From a virus, in the UHGV virus genome UHGV-0162601: DNA of 37,895 nucleotides; one strand, given 5' to 3'. The notes beneath the pieces were generated by a model. It was not told the DNA's origin. It made no database searches and saw only the letters and a list, made by a program, of their open reading frames with translations. The translations under genes were made by a program, and so were the position numbers. Positions 1-37,895 of this stretch are shown here, piece after piece; within the stretch, counting starts at the first letter, position 1, and every line of letters starts with the position of its first letter.

Positions 1-101
1 AATACGATATCTTTGATTCCTAGTTTCTTCAGATTAGTTAAACAAACTTCAAGCTTCCATTTAAACCGATTGATTGCCGGCTGACAAAGAATATACTTCA
101 T
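1..101 (-). CDS. N-terminal part (33 codons) of a GT8-like glycosyltransferase gene that continues in frame at 37895 if the window is circular
   Basis: ATG at 101-99 preceded by AGGTGA (112-107). The frame is open to position 1 (MKYILCQPAINRFKWKLEVCLTNLKKLGIKDIV). The last 2 nt plus the complement of 37895 form a TTG codon and the frame continues without a stop into ORF 37121..37828. Confidence 0.5.
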   Translation of the reverse strand, partial: MKYILCQPAINRFKWKLEVCLTNLKKLGIKDIV

Positions 102-110
102 TCTGATCAC

Positions 111-1271
111 CTACGCTTGTGTTGTAGTTGTTGTGGTTGTTGGTTTTGTAGTTGTAGTAGTAGTTCCCAAAGCGCTAATATCTAATACAATGAAACTATC
201 ATTACGTTTAGGTTGTCCGTTTGCATATTGTTTAGCTAGATAAATGCGTTCGTCTTCAACAAAATGGTATTCATCTGAAGCTTCAATTTTTAGCGTAGAT
301 CCTACACCCATGAAGTAATCTGAAGCTACCCCAATAACTGCTTTTCCTTCTGGCACAGCTGTTGACTGCAAGTCTGAAACTGGTACTGGCAATACTTGTA
401 CATATTCTCCATTAGCAGTTAGTACGGTTTTAGCTGGGAAAACTTTAGACCAGTAATCTGTTGGATTCACAATTAGGACCACATCAGAAGGATTTACATT
501 ACGATAAATCGGATCATCTACGCCTTCGATATTGAATTTTGATAGTCGTGCCATCAAACCACCCATCGTTGCAGCATCTAATGCTGTAATAGGTTCTGCT
601 GTTTTTTCAGCATATTCTCCGCTAGTTTGTTTGCTCATGTCACGCATCATTCCGACTGGCATATCTTTACCAGTACCATCAACAATTGCTTGTTCTAATG
701 CAATTCTCAATGATTCTACTAGAACAGTACGGACATAACGATCTAACCATACTGGACCTAAGTCAAGCATTGCCTTACATACAGGAATATAACCTGATAG
801 CTTGAACTGCTTCATGTTAATTACGTCAAAGCCATTATCTAAAACTTTTTTAACAGCTTCGCACAGTTTTCCCCACCATGCTGGATTGACTCCACGTGAC
901 ACAATCCATTCTGTTACACCAGTTGTGTTAACAAAAGTAATTTTTTGCAACAGTGGATGAGATTGTTCTAGATCTTCAAATACGCGTTCAAATACAGTAG
1001 CTGGTACTAATTCTTCAACTCCTGCAAAACCTTCGTTATTCACTACTTCGTTATAGAATTTTGTTTCTTGTGTAGTTAGTACACGCTGACCACGGTTCAT
1101 TAATACTAATTGATCTTGATTTTTTGCTGTTGCTTCTTCTAAAATTTTATCCTGTATTTCCTTAGATAAACTTACCATAGCTGCGCTAAAAGACTCTTCG
1201 TTACCATCTTTAAAAGCTTTCATCAATTGGTCGCTTGCAGCTGTTACACCTTTTAAATTTTTAACTGTCAT
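111..1271 (-). CDS. major capsid protein, HK97 family, with C-terminal ...TTTTTTKPTTTTTTTQA tail
   Basis: 386 aa, position after the ClpP-like protease, and typical HK97-fold MCP length. The C-terminal poly-Thr uses mixed ACN codons. Confidence 0.85.
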   Translation of the reverse strand: MTVKNLKGVTAASDQLMKAFKDGNEESFSAAMVSLSKEIQDKILEEATAKNQDQLVLMNRGQRVLTTQETKFYNEVVNNEGFAGVEELVPATVFERVFEDLEQSHPLLQKITFVNTTGVTEWIVSRGVNPAWWGKLCEAVKKVLDNGFDVINMKQFKLSGYIPVCKAMLDLGPVWLDRYVRTVLVESLRIALEQAIVDGTGKDMPVGMMRDMSKQTSGEYAEKTAEPITALDAATMGGLMARLSKFNIEGVDDPIYRNVNPSDVVLIVNPTDYWSKVFPAKTVLTANGEYVQVLPVPVSDLQSTAVPEGKAVIGVASDYFMGVGSTLKIEASDEYHFVEDERIYLAKQYANGQPKRNDSFIVLDISALGTTTTTTKPTTTTTTTQA

Positions 1272-1966
1272 TATTTTGCATCTCCTTGTCCAAATGTTTT
1301 ATTTAATGCTGCTGTAAATGCAGCAATTTTTTCTGCTCTTTTTTCTTCAACGTCATTCAAAATTTCTTCAACGCTTTGTTCTTTTTTAGCTTCAGTACCT
1401 GTGCTATTTTCTGCATCGATAATTTCATCGACCAATCCATAACTCAAAGCTGTTTCTGCATCCATAAACGATTCTTTTTCAAGAAGTTCTTGCAATGCTT
1501 CATCTGTACCGTTGAATCGTGTTTTATATGAAGCCTTTACCGATTTATCAATTGATTCCAATTGATCAGCAATCGTGCGGAAGTCATCAACATTACCTTC
1601 TCCATATGTGGAAGCGCGGTGAATCATCAATTGCGCATTGTTGTAAATTTTTACAGTATCGCCAGCCATCGCGATAATTGAAGCAGCACTAGCGGCTAAT
1701 CCGTTAATCACAACGTTGATTTTTGCTTTATTTGACTTAAGTAAGTTCCCAATAGCAATCCCTTGAAATACGTCTCCACCGTTTGAATTAATTACTACTT
1801 CAATTTCTTCTTGATCACCTAGACTATCCAAAATATTTTTGATTCCCTTGTCAGTATTCCCTTCAAAGAACCAACTAGAACCAATAAATCCCTGAATAAA
1901 AATTTGCGGTACTGTGCCTTCATTCTTTACTGCTAGAAATGTTTTCATTGTCGTCATTCGCCTCAC
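1271..1966 (-). CDS. ClpP-family head maturation protease
   Basis: ClpP-like core (VINSNGGDVF...INGLAASAASIIAMAGD) and position between portal and capsid. Confidence 0.8.
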   Translation of the reverse strand: MRRMTTMKTFLAVKNEGTVPQIFIQGFIGSSWFFEGNTDKGIKNILDSLGDQEEIEVVINSNGGDVFQGIAIGNLLKSNKAKINVVINGLAASAASIIAMAGDTVKIYNNAQLMIHRASTYGEGNVDDFRTIADQLESIDKSVKASYKTRFNGTDEALQELLEKESFMDAETALSYGLVDEIIDAENSTGTEAKKEQSVEEILNDVEEKRAEKIAAFTAALNKTFGQGDAK

Positions 1967-7494: not shown

Positions 7495-7881
7495 TTATGC
7501 GTCAGTCACTATACAAAGTTTGTCTTTGACCTTTAAAGCACAAACACTATAATAGTAGCCACCATTCCCATCATCCGCTGTGCATTCTGCTTTAGCGATC
7601 TCATTACGATTATGATAAACAACGACTTCAGCATAAGAGGTATGTCCGTCACCATTATATTCATACTTACCTTTGTCAAATATTTTTATATCTGTAATAA
7701 CCGCGTCAAGTTTTACATTTTTGAATTCACCCCCAGCCCATGCGCAACAATCATACTCGCTACATACAACTTCTAATTTTGTTCCATCTTCTAAAATTAA
7801 TTCACTCTCAGACCATTCTACGATTTTTTTGAAAATAAGATCTTTTTTCAACTCTTTCAATGATACATAATCTTTCCACAT
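7495..7881 (-). CDS. hypothetical Cys-rich protein (128 aa)
   Basis: ORF only. Located downstream of ArpU. Confidence 0.55.
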   Translation of the reverse strand: MWKDYVSLKELKKDLIFKKIVEWSESELILEDGTKLEVVCSEYDCCAWAGGEFKNVKLDAVITDIKIFDKGKYEYNGDGHTSYAEVVVYHNRNEIAKAECTADDGNGGYYYSVCALKVKDKLCIVTDA

Positions 7882-8886: not shown

Positions 8887-9132
8887 TCAACTCCCTAATC
8901 TGAAAGTGTTGTCTATACTTGATCGAAATTCTTTTAAGTGGTTCTCTACCACAGAATCAGTCACGTTAAAACGATCAATTAATACTGGAGCTGCCATATC
9001 TTTCAAATAACTTTGTCTGATGACTAATTCAGTACCATCAGGAAGTTCTATGTTAACCTCCCGACCGTTAATAATTGACTGGACGTCTGCTTCGCTTAGT
9101 GGTATTTCGTATTTCATTCCGCTTCCTCCCAT
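8887..9132 (-). CDS. hypothetical protein
   Basis: ORF in an operon context. Confidence 0.45.
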   Translation of the reverse strand: MGGSGMKYEIPLSEADVQSIINGREVNIELPDGTELVIRQSYLKDMAAPVLIDRFNVTDSVVENHLKEFRSSIDNTFRLGS

Positions 9133-9320
9133 GATTCAATGATTTCAATAAATAATTGGTTATCTAACGCCATTACAAGCGTGACATCGTAAAACCAGTA
9201 TTTCAAAGGTAAGTTCTGTGAGATATCCATTACTTTTCCTGTAAAAATGTTCTTGTTTTGGTAACGAATAATCACCGTTTCAACGTCGTTCAATACGGCT
9301 AACAGTGCTCCTAAGGTCAT
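9114..9320 (-). CDS. hypothetical protein
   Basis: ORF in an operon context. Confidence 0.45.
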   Translation of the reverse strand: MTLGALLAVLNDVETVIIRYQNKNIFTGKVMDISQNLPLKYWFYDVTLVMALDNQLFIEIIESWEEAE

Positions 9321-9375
9321 GACTCGTCCTCCTATTCTTCTAGTAATTCAATAATTACTGGTTTCTTTCTATATT

Positions 9376-9942
9376 TCATCCTTCTGCCACCTCTTCCACT
9401 GCTCCACCAATCGTTTGAGCAGTTCGATCAGCATCTGATTTCGAATCGAATATCTTAATCTCTTTATTGTCGTCAGGAATAATCAACGCGCCTCTTCCTT
9501 GATACTCAACGAAATAGCCTTCGCCTAGTTTAACTCTGTACATAGGCTCTTTCTCGACCTCGTAGCCGTTGTATAGGCTCAATAGTGTTTCGTATGATTG
9601 TCTTGTTGCCCAAGCGAGTAATTCTTCACCTTGTTCTTGCGTCACTATGCCATCTCGTACAAACCAATCACAGAAATAATATGAATCACCATCTTTAGAT
9701 TTGATTAAATACGCTATTTTTTCAGCTTTTGTAAAAGGGTCCGTAGATTTCTCAATCCAACCGGCCACGAGTTGTGGAATAACTAGCTTCTTCGGTTCGT
9801 CTAGTTGTTTTGCTAAGCCAATCAGATTGAAATACGCGTCTGTTTTTCCTCGCCAGTAGTCCTCATGTTTATCTATCCCAATGCAGCGTTTGGAATATTT
9901 ATTAAGCTTTTCTAATGTCTCAATCAATTCTTGTTTATTCAT
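9376..9942 (-). CDS. hypothetical phage protein (DUF1642-like?)
   Basis: 188 aa ORF. Family assignment is from memory only. Confidence 0.5.
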   Translation of the reverse strand: MNKQELIETLEKLNKYSKRCIGIDKHEDYWRGKTDAYFNLIGLAKQLDEPKKLVIPQLVAGWIEKSTDPFTKAEKIAYLIKSKDGDSYYFCDWFVRDGIVTQEQGEELLAWATRQSYETLLSLYNGYEVEKEPMYRVKLGEGYFVEYQGRGALIIPDDNKEIKIFDSKSDADRTAQTIGGAVEEVAEG

Positions 9943-35064: not shown

Positions 35065-35670
35065 TTAAGCTTGAGTCGTTGTAGTAGTGGTTGTTGAACT
35101 CTTTTTAATCACATCAGCAGATAGATTCGTCATCCATTGATCTGTTAAGTCTTCTTCAAGTTCTGCAACAATTGCTTCATGATAGAATTTACCAAATTCA
35201 TCTTGCATAACTTTTGTTTCTAGTTCTAAAGCAGCTACTTCATCCGCACCATTTTCAATAGAGAATGTTAATCCTGTATTCGAAGTGCATGCTAACATAC
35301 CAACTAACTTGCTATTTTCTTCGAAGTCATCCACGATCTCTGCAGCAAGTGAGAAATCTTCGCCTACGGAATCAGGACCGTAAGAGTAAATGCCTGGTTT
35401 AATACGTTCATCTTGTTTCAACCCATTGAAACGTCGATAAACTTCCATCGGTACATGTGCAGTAATTGTTACCGTCATATTGATTGGTTTAGATTTTGAT
35501 TTTACTTCTGTCGCTCCACATTTTTTAACCACCGTTTGCATTTCTGTTTCGCCATCTAATTGTCCGTTACAATCTGTTGCGATTGCATTTTCTGCATTCT
35601 TAAAATTAAAAGCAATTCGTTTGATACTCACGTTATCGAACGTTGTTACTACAGTTGTTGTTTTAGCCAT
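35065..35670 (-). CDS. major tail protein with C-terminal ...SSTTTTTTTQA tail
   Basis: 201 aa, position upstream of the G/GT chaperones. The poly-Thr uses mixed codons (ACT/ACG/ACA/ACC). Confidence 0.8.
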   Translation of the reverse strand: MAKTTTVVTTFDNVSIKRIAFNFKNAENAIATDCNGQLDGETEMQTVVKKCGATEVKSKSKPINMTVTITAHVPMEVYRRFNGLKQDERIKPGIYSYGPDSVGEDFSLAAEIVDDFEENSKLVGMLACTSNTGLTFSIENGADEVAALELETKVMQDEFGKFYHEAIVAELEEDLTDQWMTNLSADVIKKSSTTTTTTTQA

Positions 35671-36826: not shown

Positions 36827-37124
36827 CATCACCTGCAATATATTCTTGTAGCGCATAATGTTGAATGAAACCTAATAACTCACTAGCGAAATTTTGTTCA
36901 AACTCATCTAAAGCACGATTCCAGTCGTATCTACATCTTTCGATTAGCAATCCGTATTCTAAGCTTTCAGGAGAAAAAGAAAGTGTTGTACTCACTTTAC
37001 TTTGAAGATAAACAGCATTTTTAGCTATCATCTTTTTAATTGACTCATCTTCTTCGTTCCAGGTAACGTAAATATTATCCTTCACAGCTATTAGCAATTC
37101 TTCAGTCACTTGTTCAGGCGTCAT
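36813..37124 (-). CDS. head-tail connector (gp6-like adaptor)
   Basis: 103 aa, first small gene after the capsid/GT genes. Confidence 0.5.
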   Translation of the reverse strand: MTPEQVTEELLIAVKDNIYVTWNEEDESIKKMIAKNAVYLQSKVSTTLSFSPESLEYGLLIERCRYDWNRALDEFEQNFASELLGFIQHYALQEYIAGDGNGE

Positions 37125-37895
37125 CTAACCACCGCCTTAATTGCTTTAACATATGCGTAAGAGCATTTTTTCTTGTTTACAAATGATAAATCTTCATCAA
37201 AAGGCGTGGAAGTAACGTATCTCCCTTTGAAAAATAAATCTTCATCATTTGTTGTTACTCCAGCGTTATGCAAGATTTTTACTTCTTTAAATTTTTCTAT
37301 TGGATCAGTAGCAAAACAAAAGTTTAATTCCTCGTGAACTTTAGGACCAATATTGAAATACATCATGTTCCAAAGCTGTGCCCACATCTCGGCTGTCCAA
37401 ATCTGTACATTTGTTTTTTGCCCTCTAAGGTAGCGATATAGCCGATTAGAATCCAGATAAACCTTTTTCCAATAATTCGCTTTAGGACGGTTAATAACCC
37501 ACTGTGCGCCTCCTGAATTAGTGTTTATAGTTTCCAAAGATTCTACTCTAACATTTACAATATTTGCCATATCTTTTAGAATATTTTCTCCGTTTTCACA
37601 GCTTCTAATATAATCAAGACTTAGATAACTACAGCAGTCGCTACAATACCAAACATCATCTTTAGAAGGCAATTTGCGCAAATTAATTCTTTTATTGAAA
37701 ATGACATCCGAATCGATATAGAAATATCGGTCGTCCTCACGCGAATGATCTTCTTCTAAATATTTCCACCATAAATATGGTTTAATCGAAGGAATATACT
37801 CTTTGTCGTCCCGCAGATCATCGTACACATGAACTTCAACGCCATATTCCTTCTCAAAAAAAATAGGAATCTGATCATCGTGTCTGCTGAAAAGC
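37121..37895 (-). CDS. GT8-family (LgtC/RfaJ-like, GT-A fold) glycosyltransferase, 5' end runs off the window edge and continues at 1..101
   Basis: DxD motif in RYFYIDSDVIF matches GT8 LYLDSDIIV. Downstream NTNSGGAQWVINRPKANYWKK matches GT8 FNSGVLLINLKKWR. The frame is open to 37895. Confidence 0.5.
   Translation of the reverse strand, partial: LFSRHDDQIPIFFEKEYGVEVHVYDDLRDDKEYIPSIKPYLWWKYLEEDHSREDDRYFYIDSDVIFNKRINLRKLPSKDDVWYCSDCCSYLSLDYIRSCENGENILKDMANIVNVRVESLETINTNSGGAQWVINRPKANYWKKVYLDSNRLYRYLRGQKTNVQIWTAEMWAQLWNMMYFNIGPKVHEELNFCFATDPIEKFKEVKILHNAGVTTNDEDLFFKGRYVTSTPFDEDLSFVNKKKCSYAYVKAIKAVVR

What the first reader, a model, noticed from the sequence alone, without database searches (positions are those of the whole stretch)
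111..176. Major capsid protein ends in a Thr6-KP-Thr7-Gln-Ala tail identical in its last 9 residues to the major tail protein C-terminus
Two unrelated virion proteins, capsid (111..1271) and tail tube (35065..35670), terminate in the same TTTTTTTQA motif. The Thr runs use mixed ACA/ACT/ACC/ACG codons, so the motif is selected at the protein level and is not a homopolymer slippage artefact. C-terminal Ser/Thr-rich extensions on capsid and tail-tube subunits are the O-glycosylation sites in some mycobacteriophages, and a GT8-like glycosyltransferase gene sits immediately downstream of the capsid gene here. I am not aware of an equivalent in this type of phage.
Basis: partly seen in the sequence, partly recalled or inferred. 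Interest (0 to 1): 0.85.

Follow-up and report, generated by a model that had tools for sequence, protein, structure and literature searches.

The report
Probable sugar-coating system of Enterococcus phage

Summary
The capsid protein (111..1271, minus strand) ends GTTTTTTKPTTTTTTTQA. The tail-tube protein (35065..35670, minus strand) ends SSTTTTTTTQA. No other threonine run of four or more exists in the window.

Among 54 dereplicated loci carrying this gene, from Enterococcus, Lactobacillaceae, Lactococcus, Listeria, Staphylococcus, Clostridium and halophilic Bacillaceae, 50 have at least one neighbouring virion protein with a poly-Thr C-terminus and 40 have two or more. In the window's own capsid lineage, tailed capsids have the gene and a tailed tail tube (5 of 5). 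Untailed capsids lack the gene (6 of 6).

The residues after the Thr run usually match between capsid and tail tube within a genome. In some relatives the tail is reached by a -1 frameshift.

Best explanation: phage-encoded O-glycosylation of virion tails. No biochemical data exist. I rate it a new variant of the mycobacteriophage system.

The parts
111..1271 (-). Major capsid protein gene (HK97 fold, 386 aa)
   Evidence: Pfam PF05065 over residues 88-364, E 2e-16. PHROG 10, E 1e-63. TIGR01554. Annotated as major capsid protein in the 98% identical phage 4995_1.
111..167 (-). Capsid C-terminal tail G-T6-KP-T7-QA plus stop. T6 = 147..164, KP = 141..146, T7 = 120..140, QA = 114..119, TAG = 111..113. 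Proposed O-glycosylation acceptor.
   Evidence: Lies beyond the Pfam domain and the conserved core. Predicted coil with low pLDDT.
1..101 (-). 5' part (codons 1-33 and the first two bases of codon 34) of the 291-aa predicted glycosyltransferase (PHROG 4417). ATG at 101..99, nine bases after the capsid stop codon. AGGTGATC (112..105) overlaps the capsid stop codon and reads as a Shine-Dalgarno sequence.
   Evidence: PHROG 4417, E 6e-155.
37121..37895 (-). 3' part of the same gene, continuing across the window junction. The stop TGA (37123..37121) overlaps the ATG of the next gene (37124).
   Evidence: Continuity shown by 98% end-to-end alignment of the joined sequence with OP745419, L002 and L088. 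AlphaFold pLDDT 96.5. GT-A fold of GT8 type. D95-x-D97 and H243 invariant in 41 homologues.
35065..35670 (-). Major tail (tail-tube) protein gene, 201 aa
   Evidence: PHROG 117 major tail protein, E 7e-19. Its position between the neck genes and the tape-measure gene.
35065..35100 (-). Tail-tube C-terminal tail SS-T7-QA plus stop. T7 = 35074..35094, QA = 35068..35073, TAA = 35065..35067. Proposed second acceptor.

Best explanation
The window is a complete, circularly permuted temperate siphophage of Enterococcus faecium. Its late operon encodes three cooperating elements: a capsid protein and a tail-tube protein that each carry a short, disordered, threonine-rich C-terminal tail, and between them a soluble 291-aa enzyme.

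Shown here:
- The tails exist, lie outside the folded domains, and are the only Thr runs in the genome.
- The enzyme is predicted with high confidence to have a GT-A glycosyltransferase fold closest to the retaining GT8 family, with an invariant DxD motif and an invariant histidine.
- Across Firmicutes phages and prophages, the gene is found almost only next to virion genes whose products end in poly-Thr. In the window's own capsid lineage, gene and tails are gained and lost together.

Inferred:
- During late infection the enzyme uses a host nucleotide sugar (probably a UDP-hexose or UDP-HexNAc) and a divalent metal to attach sugars in alpha linkage to the threonine hydroxyls of both tails in the cytoplasm.
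- The assembled head and tail tube would then carry a mucin-like glycan coat: up to 13 sites per capsid subunit and up to 9 (7 Thr plus 2 Ser) per tail-tube subunit.
[quoted passage not shown] The free C-terminal end is therefore probably part of what the enzyme, or another common partner, recognises.
- The biological role is open. Candidates are shielding from antibodies or proteases (as reported for mycobacteriophages), weak adhesion to cell-wall or mucus glycans (the role proposed for the Ig-like domains that occupy the same positions in sister phages), or colloidal stability.

For: Gene position. The gene sits inside the late structural operon and is tightly coupled on both sides.

Gene to tail. 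In 54 loci dereplicated at under 90% enzyme identity, 50 have at least one in-frame poly-Thr-tailed ORF on the enzyme's strand and 40 have two or more. The four exceptions are a frameshift-encoded tail, a TSTTTSTTT tail that missed the T4 criterion, one weak case, and a 1-kb fragment. Isolated phages show the same pattern: phiFL1A gp45/gp50/gp51, Lactococcus phage 1706 orf10/orf13/orf14 (both ending TTHHD), and Clostridium phage phiCTP1.

Tail to gene within the lineage. Capsids 80-100% identical with a tail (window, P0125, P0127, P0129, P0132) have the gene 5 of 5 times and a tailed tail tube 5 of 5 times. Capsids 55-83% identical without a tail (P0131, P0134, P0136, P0148, P0140, P0162) have no hit to the enzyme profile even at E 10, 6 of 6 times, and 5 of 6 have an untailed tail tube.

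Tail ends covary. The last 2 residues are identical in 24 of 34 loci; shuffles give mean 3.8, maximum 13, and 0 of 10000 reach 24. In 9 of 17 loci with identical suffixes the codons differ. Examples are SGAGA with 5 of 5 codons different, and SHA written AGC CAT GCT versus TCA CAC GCA.

Selection for the tail. Three loci lacking an in-frame capsid tail encode poly-Thr in the -1 frame just after C CCA AAA or UCA AAG, one codon before the stop.

Precedent. Glycans at the C-termini of capsid and tail-tube subunits of mycobacteriophages, added by phage glycosyltransferases (Freeman 2023, as described in PMC12619734, PMC11600133, PMC13445384).
Against: No biochemical evidence exists for this phage or any relative. 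I found no mass spectrometry or glycan staining of a phage that carries the gene. The one proteomic paper read (phiEf11, PMC5221750) concerns a phage that lacks both gene and tails.

The enzyme assignment rests on a predicted structure. There is no sequence-level match to any glycosyltransferase family in Pfam, NCBIfam or PDB sequences.

Direct transfer to a protein threonine is not the typical GT8 reaction. Most GT8 enzymes extend glycans, and glycogenin modifies tyrosine.

Poly-Thr C-termini also occur on proteins of unrelated viral contigs: 53 loci in an arbitrary sample, of which only 11 showed this gene in the available flank. In 28 of those loci only three GT1/GT4-type ORFs were seen. 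A B. cereus prophage has a T5 tail on its tail tube without the gene nearby.

The matching tail ends are partly explained by gene conversion. The two tails are DNA-identical over 30 nt in L048, L054 and L055, including a shared GCG to GTG change.
Confidence: 0.75

Rival explanations
1. The tails are unmodified hydrophilic, flexible spacers on the virion surface. The 291-aa enzyme glycosylates something else, such as host wall teichoic acid or another cell-surface polymer (superinfection exclusion), or phage DNA.
For: Phage glycosyltransferases are best known for DNA and host-surface modification (general knowledge; PMC12619734). Poly-Thr tails occur in viral contigs with no copy of this gene in the flank.
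Against: The gene sits inside the late structural operon, not in a lysogenic-conversion or replication module. It has no signal peptide or membrane segment; a beta-strand starts at residue 2. This 38-kb temperate phage shows no sign of a base-hypermodification pathway, although I annotated only the structural and lysis genes. This reading does not explain why gene and tails are gained and lost together among 80-89% identical capsids, or why the gene always abuts a tailed protein.
Confidence: 0.1
2. The tails are glycosylated or otherwise modified by host enzymes. The 291-aa protein is a catalytically inactive GT-fold protein, for example a chaperone or decoration protein that binds the tails.
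For: Streptococci glycosylate Ser/Thr-rich disordered regions with host enzymes (PMC12041528). The covarying tail ends would also fit a binding partner.
Against: The host systems described act outside the cytoplasm, whereas virions assemble in the cytoplasm. The DxD motif and other polar residues are invariant across genera, which points to catalysis. The family spans hosts with very different glycosylation repertoires.
Confidence: 0.07
3. The shared TTTTTTTQA ending is a by-product of gene conversion or duplication between the two genes and has no function.
For: The tails are DNA-identical in L048, L054 and L055 and in L101. Third positions match 47% of the time against 37% expected.
Against: In the window the two tails differ at 5 synonymous sites. 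Identical suffixes are often encoded by different codons, including different serine codon families. Tails are kept across distant genera on non-homologous proteins: capsid, tail tube, portal and small head proteins. In some genomes they are supplied by frameshifting.
Confidence: 0.03

Closest known systems
Mycobacteriophage virion O-glycosylation (Che8, Corndog, Myrna and cluster F/O relatives; Freeman et al. 2023, Cell Host Microbe 31:1216)
   Same: Phage-encoded glycosyltransferase(s) are present. The acceptors are C-terminal extensions of both the major capsid protein and the tail-tube protein. The proposed outcome is a glycan coat on head and tail. (As described in PMC12619734, PMC11600133, PMC13445384.)
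   Different: The host phylum differs (Firmicutes versus Actinobacteria). There is a single enzyme gene rather than two to four plus a methyltransferase. The enzyme belongs to an unannotated family (PHROG 4417), and BFVD returned no mycobacteriophage protein among its 50 best fold matches. The acceptor is a near-homopolymeric Thr run with a genome-specific 1-5 residue end. The gene sits within the head-tail gene block. Glycosylation is unproven here. I could not read the primary paper.
CAZy family GT8 retaining glycosyltransferases (LgtC, glycogenin, GlyE of the pneumococcal serine-rich-repeat pathway)
   Different: No sequence similarity is detectable by HMMER. Known GT8 enzymes mostly extend sugars or modify tyrosine, whereas here the proposed acceptor is a peptide threonine.
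Ig-like (Big_2) domains appended to capsid and tail-tube proteins by -1 frameshifting (Lactobacillus phage A2; Fraser et al. 2006; from memory, reviewed in PMC5009743)
   Same: The add-on occupies the same two positions, the C-termini of capsid and tail tube, in sister phages of the same capsid lineage. L261 and L262 carry Big_2 in the -1 frame after C CCA AAA G or A AAA AAA G. In L094 and L138 the same slippery heptamer delivers a poly-Thr tail instead.
   Different: In the window the tail is in frame, so every subunit carries it. The add-on is a disordered peptide needing an enzyme rather than a folded domain.
Chlorovirus PBCV-1 A64R and glycosylation of the capsid protein Vp54
   Different: It is a eukaryotic giant virus with atypical N-linked glycans on a folded jelly-roll protein. 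There is no C-terminal acceptor tail, and the fold match is weaker.
Mucin-type O-glycosylation by polypeptide GalNAc-transferases (GT27)
   Same: A retaining GT-A enzyme acts directly on clustered threonines in a disordered Pro/Thr-rich segment. This is the nearest mechanistic analogue for what is proposed (general knowledge).
   Different: It is eukaryotic, located in the Golgi and carries a lectin domain. No homology was shown here.

Membership tests
Phage virion O-glycosylation system (mycobacteriophage type) | Phage-encoded glycosyltransferase | tested here: met
Phage virion O-glycosylation system (mycobacteriophage type) | Ser/Thr-rich C-terminal extension on both the major capsid and the tail-tube subunit | tested here: met
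Phage virion O-glycosylation system (mycobacteriophage type) | Glycans demonstrated on virion proteins and dependent on the phage enzyme | not testable with these tools
   Needs mass spectrometry or glycan staining plus a mutant. No such data were found in 10 literature searches.
Phage virion O-glycosylation system (mycobacteriophage type) | Enzyme homologous to the mycobacteriophage glycosyltransferases | tested here: inconclusive
   No mycobacteriophage protein is among the 50 best BFVD fold matches. No direct comparison was made because I had no Che8 sequences.
CAZy GT8 / Pfam PF01501 Glyco_transf_8 | Significant sequence match to the family profile | tested here: not met
   No match to PF01501 or any other glycosyltransferase model for any of 41 members at E up to 1. 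No PDB sequence match. No NCBIfam match.
CAZy GT8 / Pfam PF01501 Glyco_transf_8 | GT-A fold with DxD after beta-4 | tested here: met
CAZy GT8 / Pfam PF01501 Glyco_transf_8 | Retaining mechanism and nucleotide-sugar donor | not testable with these tools
   Enzymology is required.
PHROG 4417 | Full-length match to the profile | tested here: met
   E 6e-155 over residues 1-289 of 291. The family is annotated 'unknown function'.
HK97-fold major capsid protein (PF05065 / TIGR01554) | Profile match above the curated cut-off | tested here: met
   60.5 bits against a cut-off of 24.2. 65.1 bits against 27.5.
Frameshift-appended C-terminal extensions of capsid and tail proteins (phage A2 type) | Slippery heptamer before the stop codon with the extension in the -1 frame | tested here: not met
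   In the window both tails are in frame. The feature is present in relatives L094, L103, L138, L261 and L262.

The most novel reading that the evidence does not exclude
Firmicutes phages may share a modular 'C-terminal tag' system. Any virion protein (capsid, tail tube, portal, small head proteins) that ends in a Thr run followed by the genome's own 1-5 residue terminus would become a substrate of one dedicated enzyme, a GT8-like family not recognised by any sequence profile. That enzyme would read the free C-terminal end. The dose of the tag would be set either in frame (every subunit) or by -1 frameshifting (a fraction of subunits). The tag would be evolutionarily interchangeable with frameshift-appended Ig-like domains at the same positions. 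It would then be a general, tunable glycan-coating mechanism for phage particles in gut, dairy, clinical and hypersaline Firmicutes.
Probability: 0.35. Interest if true: 0.85.

Novelty: new variant of a known kind. Interest (0 to 1): 0.75.

Why it matters
If confirmed, virion glycosylation would extend from one group of actinobacteriophages to phages and prophages of Enterococcus faecium and E. faecalis, Staphylococcus, Listeria, Lactococcus, Lactobacillaceae, Clostridium and halophilic Bacillaceae.

It would also assign a function to a conserved family that is "hypothetical" everywhere: PHROG 4417, with 896 clusters at 90% identity, one of which holds 1096 E. faecium sequences.

A glycan coat bears on how therapeutic enterococcal and staphylococcal phages are seen by antibodies, on phage retention in mucus, and on the behaviour of dairy phages.

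The short, portable acceptor tag (a Thr run plus a terminal dipeptide) and its single small soluble enzyme would also be an attractive tool for glycoengineering in bacteria.

The system is directly testable. It comprises one gene and two short tails in an inducible prophage of a culturable host.

Tried and rejected
- Sequence-based assignment of the enzyme failed. There was no glycosyltransferase match in Pfam (single protein, and all 41 members at E up to 1), NCBIfam or PDB sequence searches. Only structure prediction and fold search were informative.

- I looked for published experimental hints. The phiEf11 virion study reports an over-heavy tail protein and two capsid bands (PMC5221750). 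However, phiEf11 has neither the gene nor Thr tails, so I do not use it as evidence.

- The primary mycobacteriophage paper (PMC10527164) is not held. I rely on citing papers for it.

- I ran a reverse co-occurrence test, scanning IMG/VR for T7-X-X-stop. 53 real tails were found, 11 with the gene. A Pfam scan of 150 ORFs from 28 gene-less loci found only three GT1/GT4 proteins. This shows that tails are not exclusive to this enzyme family. It cannot show that those viruses lack glycosyltransferases.

- Pure gene conversion as the reason for matching tail ends is rejected as the sole cause because of codon differences. It is accepted as a contributing process.

- A DNA-level or slippage origin of the Thr runs is rejected because the codons are mixed.

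- I could not obtain residue-level structural alignments or model coordinates. The correspondence of D95, D97 and H243 to the GT8 metal site therefore remains an inference from memory of LgtC.

Full report
**What the window is**

The 37,895-bp window (35% G+C) is 98% identical over the 6 kb compared to Enterococcus phage 4995_1, a circular 39-kb element from E. faecium. On the minus strand it carries a standard siphophage late operon:
- small and large terminase, portal, and a ClpP-type prohead protease (1271..1966);
- the major capsid protein (111..1271);
- four head-tail joining genes;
- the major tail protein (35065..35670);
- two small genes in the position of tail assembly chaperones, then the tape measure, Dit, Tal, and further on an endolysin.

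The window is a circular permutation. The gene that follows the capsid gene starts at 101 and runs off the left end. It continues from 37895 down to 37121. The joined sequence aligns without a break, 1295 nt at 98%, to three independent contigs.

**The observation**

- The capsid protein ends ...ISALG-TTTTTT-KP-TTTTTTT-QA.
- The tail-tube protein ends ...VIKK-SS-TTTTTTT-QA.
- The Thr codons are a mixture of ACA, ACT, ACC and ACG.
- The two nine-residue ends differ at five synonymous positions and use different stop codons.
- In all six reading frames of the window, Thr runs of four or more occur nowhere else. From composition, about 3e-5 T7 runs are expected.

The tail is an appendage to the capsid fold.
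- The Pfam capsid domain ends at residue 364.
- The conserved core of 31 homologues ends at ...FIVLDISxLG, with variable sequence after it.
- AlphaFold places the last strand at 360-364 and leaves 365-386 as coil, with pLDDT below 50 at 371-383.

**The neighbouring gene**

The 291-aa product has no Pfam, NCBIfam or PDB-sequence match. Its only family is PHROG 4417, "unknown function".

It has 896 relatives at 90% clustering. All are named "hypothetical", apart from inherited labels such as "prophage pi2 protein 34".

With an alignment of 41 homologues, AlphaFold gives a very confident model (pLDDT 96.5, pTM 0.92).
- Foldseek against PDB agrees.
- In the viral structure library, the best matches after the family's own members are GT8 and GT-A proteins of giant viruses and cyanophages.
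- D95-S-D97, directly after strand 90-93, is invariant, as are H243 and G246.

As I remember it, this is the Asp-x-Asp...His metal-site layout of LgtC and glycogenin. I could not obtain a residue-level superposition, so that correspondence is an inference.

The protein is not a GT8 member by sequence criteria.

The protein has no signal peptide or membrane segment. Its start codon lies nine bases after the capsid stop, behind an AGGTGATC Shine-Dalgarno sequence that overlaps that stop. Its own stop overlaps the next start codon. It should therefore be made together with the structural proteins, in the cytoplasm.

**Co-occurrence, from the gene to the tails**

I fetched loci around relatives of the gene from IMG/VR (545 confirmed, 80 kept) and from one genome per species in GTDB (51 loci). 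I also fetched six isolated phages.

After dereplication at under 90% enzyme identity, 54 loci remain. Of these, 40 have two or more ORFs on the enzyme's strand that end in a poly-Thr tail, 10 have one, and 4 have none.

The four exceptions are:
- a frameshift case (phage 9183);
- an S. aureus locus whose tails read TSTTTSTTT and missed my T4 criterion;
- one weak case;
- a 1-kb fragment.

The tailed proteins are the capsid protein and the tail-tube protein in most loci. In some loci they also include a protein of about 105 aa encoded after the capsid gene, the portal (phiCTP1), or a dedicated 113-122-aa protein encoded between the capsid gene and the enzyme gene.

The enzyme gene is always inside the head-tail gene block, directly after either the capsid gene or the tail-tube gene.

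Isolated phages with the gene include:
- Enterococcus phages phiFL1A-C and phiFL2A-B;
- Lactobacillus phages iLp84 and PLE3;
- Lactococcus phages bIL285 and 1706;
- Clostridium phage phiCTP1;
- the 86-kb Enterococcus phages 9183, nattely and VFW;
- the roughly 90-kb Staphylococcus Sextaecvirus phages;
- Lactobacillus plantarum myophages.

**Co-occurrence, from the tails to the gene**

Within the window's own capsid lineage the association is complete in the sample I could afford.
- Capsids with a tail (the window, and P0125, P0127, P0129 and P0132 at 82-89% identity) all have the enzyme gene next to them, with profile E-values around 1e-160. All have a poly-Thr tail on the tail tube.
- Syntenic relatives whose capsids are 81-83% identical but end in PVSK, PPTP or PASK have no match to the enzyme profile even at E 10. 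Their tail-tube proteins share the preceding ...LTDQWMSNLSA[DE]VI... motif and simply stop without a Thr run.
- Three more distant untailed capsids also lack the gene.

That is 5 of 5 against 0 of 6. The cases are not phylogenetically independent, but tailed and untailed capsids overlap in their range of identity to the window (80-89% and 81-83%).

Outside the lineage the picture is looser. Only 11 had this gene in the short flank available.

A Pfam scan of 150 ORFs from 28 of the other loci found three GT1/GT4 proteins and several crAss-type tail ring proteins.

So C-terminal poly-Thr is a wider viral feature and is not tied to this enzyme family alone. Whether those viruses carry other glycosyltransferases elsewhere in their genomes is untested.

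**Two further observations that bear on mechanism**

[quoted passage not shown] Examples are QA/QA, KKA/KKA, KKV/KKV, SHA/SHA, HHD/HHD, SA/SA, GA/GA, AAV/AAV, EAQ/EAQ, KG/KG and SGAGA/SGAGA.
- In 34 dereplicated loci the last two residues match in 24. Shuffled pairings give a mean of 3.8 and a maximum of 13, and none of 10,000 reaches 24.
- Part of this is gene conversion. In three E. faecium prophages the two tails are identical in DNA over 30 nt, including a GCG to GTG change present in both genes of one of them.
- It is not only that. In 9 of 17 loci with identical suffixes the suffix codons differ (16 of 42 codons). SGAGA is written with five different codons. SHA is written AGC CAT GCT in one gene and TCA CAC GCA in the other.
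- In the window itself the tails differ at five synonymous sites.
- This points to a constraint on the peptide. The simplest reading is that a common partner, most economically the enzyme, reads the C-terminal end.

Second, in three loci where the capsid gene lacks an in-frame tail, a poly-Thr sequence of 30-55 residues lies in the -1 frame.
- It begins at a slippery site one codon before the capsid stop.
- The site is C CCA AAA G in a Lacticaseibacillus prophage and in Enterococcus phage 9183. It is UCA AAG in a Listeria prophage.
- In sister phages without the enzyme, the same kind of site (C CCA AAA G, A AAA AAA G) delivers Big_2 Ig-like domains to both the capsid and the tail-tube protein.
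- This is the arrangement I recall for Lactobacillus phage A2, whose frameshifting is covered in a review I retrieved but did not read (PMC5009743).
- Poly-Thr plus enzyme therefore looks like an alternative to Ig-like domains for decorating the same two surfaces.

**Best explanation**

The enzyme O-glycosylates the threonines of the two tails in the cytoplasm during late infection, and the particle emerges with a glycan coat on head and tail tube.
- The fold, the conserved motif, the operon position and the comparative pattern are shown.
- The transfer reaction, the donor sugar, the alpha linkage expected of a retaining GT-A enzyme, recognition of the C-terminal end and the biological role are all inferred.

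I put the probability at about 0.75. The rivals each fail to account for part of the comparative data:
- enzyme acts on another substrate with the tails unmodified, 0.10;
- host-mediated modification with a non-catalytic GT-fold protein, 0.07;
- a functionless product of gene conversion, 0.03.

**Comparison with what is known**

The nearest known system is the O-glycosylation of the C-termini of capsid and tail-tube subunits in mycobacteriophages by phage-encoded glycosyltransferases (Freeman et al. 2023). I could not read that paper and cite it through PMC12619734, PMC11600133 and PMC13445384.

The present case shares the logic. It differs in five respects:
- host phylum;
- number of enzymes (one);
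- enzyme family, which is unannotated, and no mycobacteriophage protein appears among the best viral fold matches;
- acceptor design, a near-homopolymeric Thr run with a covarying terminus that is sometimes frameshift-dosed;
- gene position.

Ten full-text searches found no description of virion glycosylation in phages of Firmicutes. That is absence of evidence in one library, not proof of novelty.

I rate it a new variant of a known kind and of high interest. It gives a testable function to a widespread "hypothetical" phage protein, and it concerns phages of clinical and industrial hosts.

Noticed in passing
window 1..101 and 37121..37895: The window is a circular permutation of a complete phage genome. 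The glycosyltransferase-like gene is cut by the window ends and is therefore missing from a plain ORF list.
   Followed up: yes
L094:9880-10010, L138:11000-11130, L103:3040-3220: Capsid genes without an in-frame tail have a poly-Thr sequence in the -1 frame. It starts at C CCA AAA G (L094, L138 = Enterococcus phage 9183) or UCA AAG (L103, Listeria fleischmannii), one codon before the stop. This is probably programmed frameshifting that gives the tail to a fraction of subunits.
   Followed up: partly
L262:7100-7631 and 9610-9909; L261:7090-7420: Sister phages without the enzyme gene append Big_2 Ig-like domains in the -1 frame. In Dellaglioa algida (L262) this happens on both the capsid and the tail-tube protein, each ending TCA AAA AAA GCG TAA. 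In L261 it is seen on the capsid only, after GAC CCA AAA GCG TAA.
   Followed up: partly
L264 (phiEf11) 7590-7700 and 9121..9714; L258 and L260 just after the capsid stop: There is a third kind of shared add-on. The -1 extension of the phiEf11 capsid gene (IEAPKVESVIPTTDGASIVLS) resembles the in-frame C-terminus of its tail protein (DSPSVESVTPTFDGASTELS). Similar -1 frame peptides (…TAPTVGTVTPTADGANVELS) follow G TCA AAA TAA in L258 and L260. Its function is unknown.
   Followed up: no
L048, L054, L055 (E. faecium prophages in IMG/VR): The capsid and tail-tube tails are identical in DNA over 30 nt (…ACG AAA AAA GCG or GTG). The GCG to GTG change is present in both genes of L054. This indicates gene conversion between the two short segments.
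   Followed up: yes
L008, L009, L010 and about 25 other E. faecium loci: A second tail-tube allele ends KKTSVVTTTATQSQ instead of KKSSTTTTTTTQA, while the capsid keeps its full tail and the enzyme is 99% identical. This is a degenerate or alternative acceptor.
   Followed up: no
L085:9660-10001, L072:8871-9230, L086:9454-9822: In some halophilic Bacillaceae prophages the only tailed protein is a separate 113-122-aa ORF (MALTYNVYRDDE…) encoded between the capsid gene and the enzyme gene. Its C-terminal half is almost all Thr blocks. The capsid and tail tube are untailed there.
   Followed up: partly
L136 (Lactobacillus phage Bacchae) 14057-16161: In this 141-kb myophage the enzyme gene (gp070) lies far from the capsid gene. 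It is flanked by three small proteins with long Thr-rich C-terminal regions (gp068, gp069 annotated 'major tail protein', gp071).
   Followed up: no
L139, L140, L192, L200, L208 and other IMG/VR loci: Unrelated viral contigs, some crAss-like and some giant-virus bins, also carry several proteins per locus ending in T7 or longer runs. Many end Cys…TTTTTTT-IP, -II or -LP. PHROG 4417 is absent from the flank.
   Followed up: partly
L263:8735-9334 (Bacillus cereus prophage): The tail-tube protein ends …KQTTTTTLSK and the capsid ends …GSGTTTP, with no enzyme gene in the 13-kb locus. This is a short Thr run without the enzyme.
   Followed up: no
L138 (phage 9183 gp095) and row H30: Existing annotations of family members are misleading: 'homology to PqqD family peptide modification chaperone' and 'hypothetical protein with lpxB motif'.
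   Followed up: no
L129 (Candidatus Saccharimonadales MAG) and the organism counts (Chryseobacterium and Arcanobacterium phages): Family members turn up outside Firmicutes. I did not check whether these are true hosts or binning or host-assignment errors.
   Followed up: no
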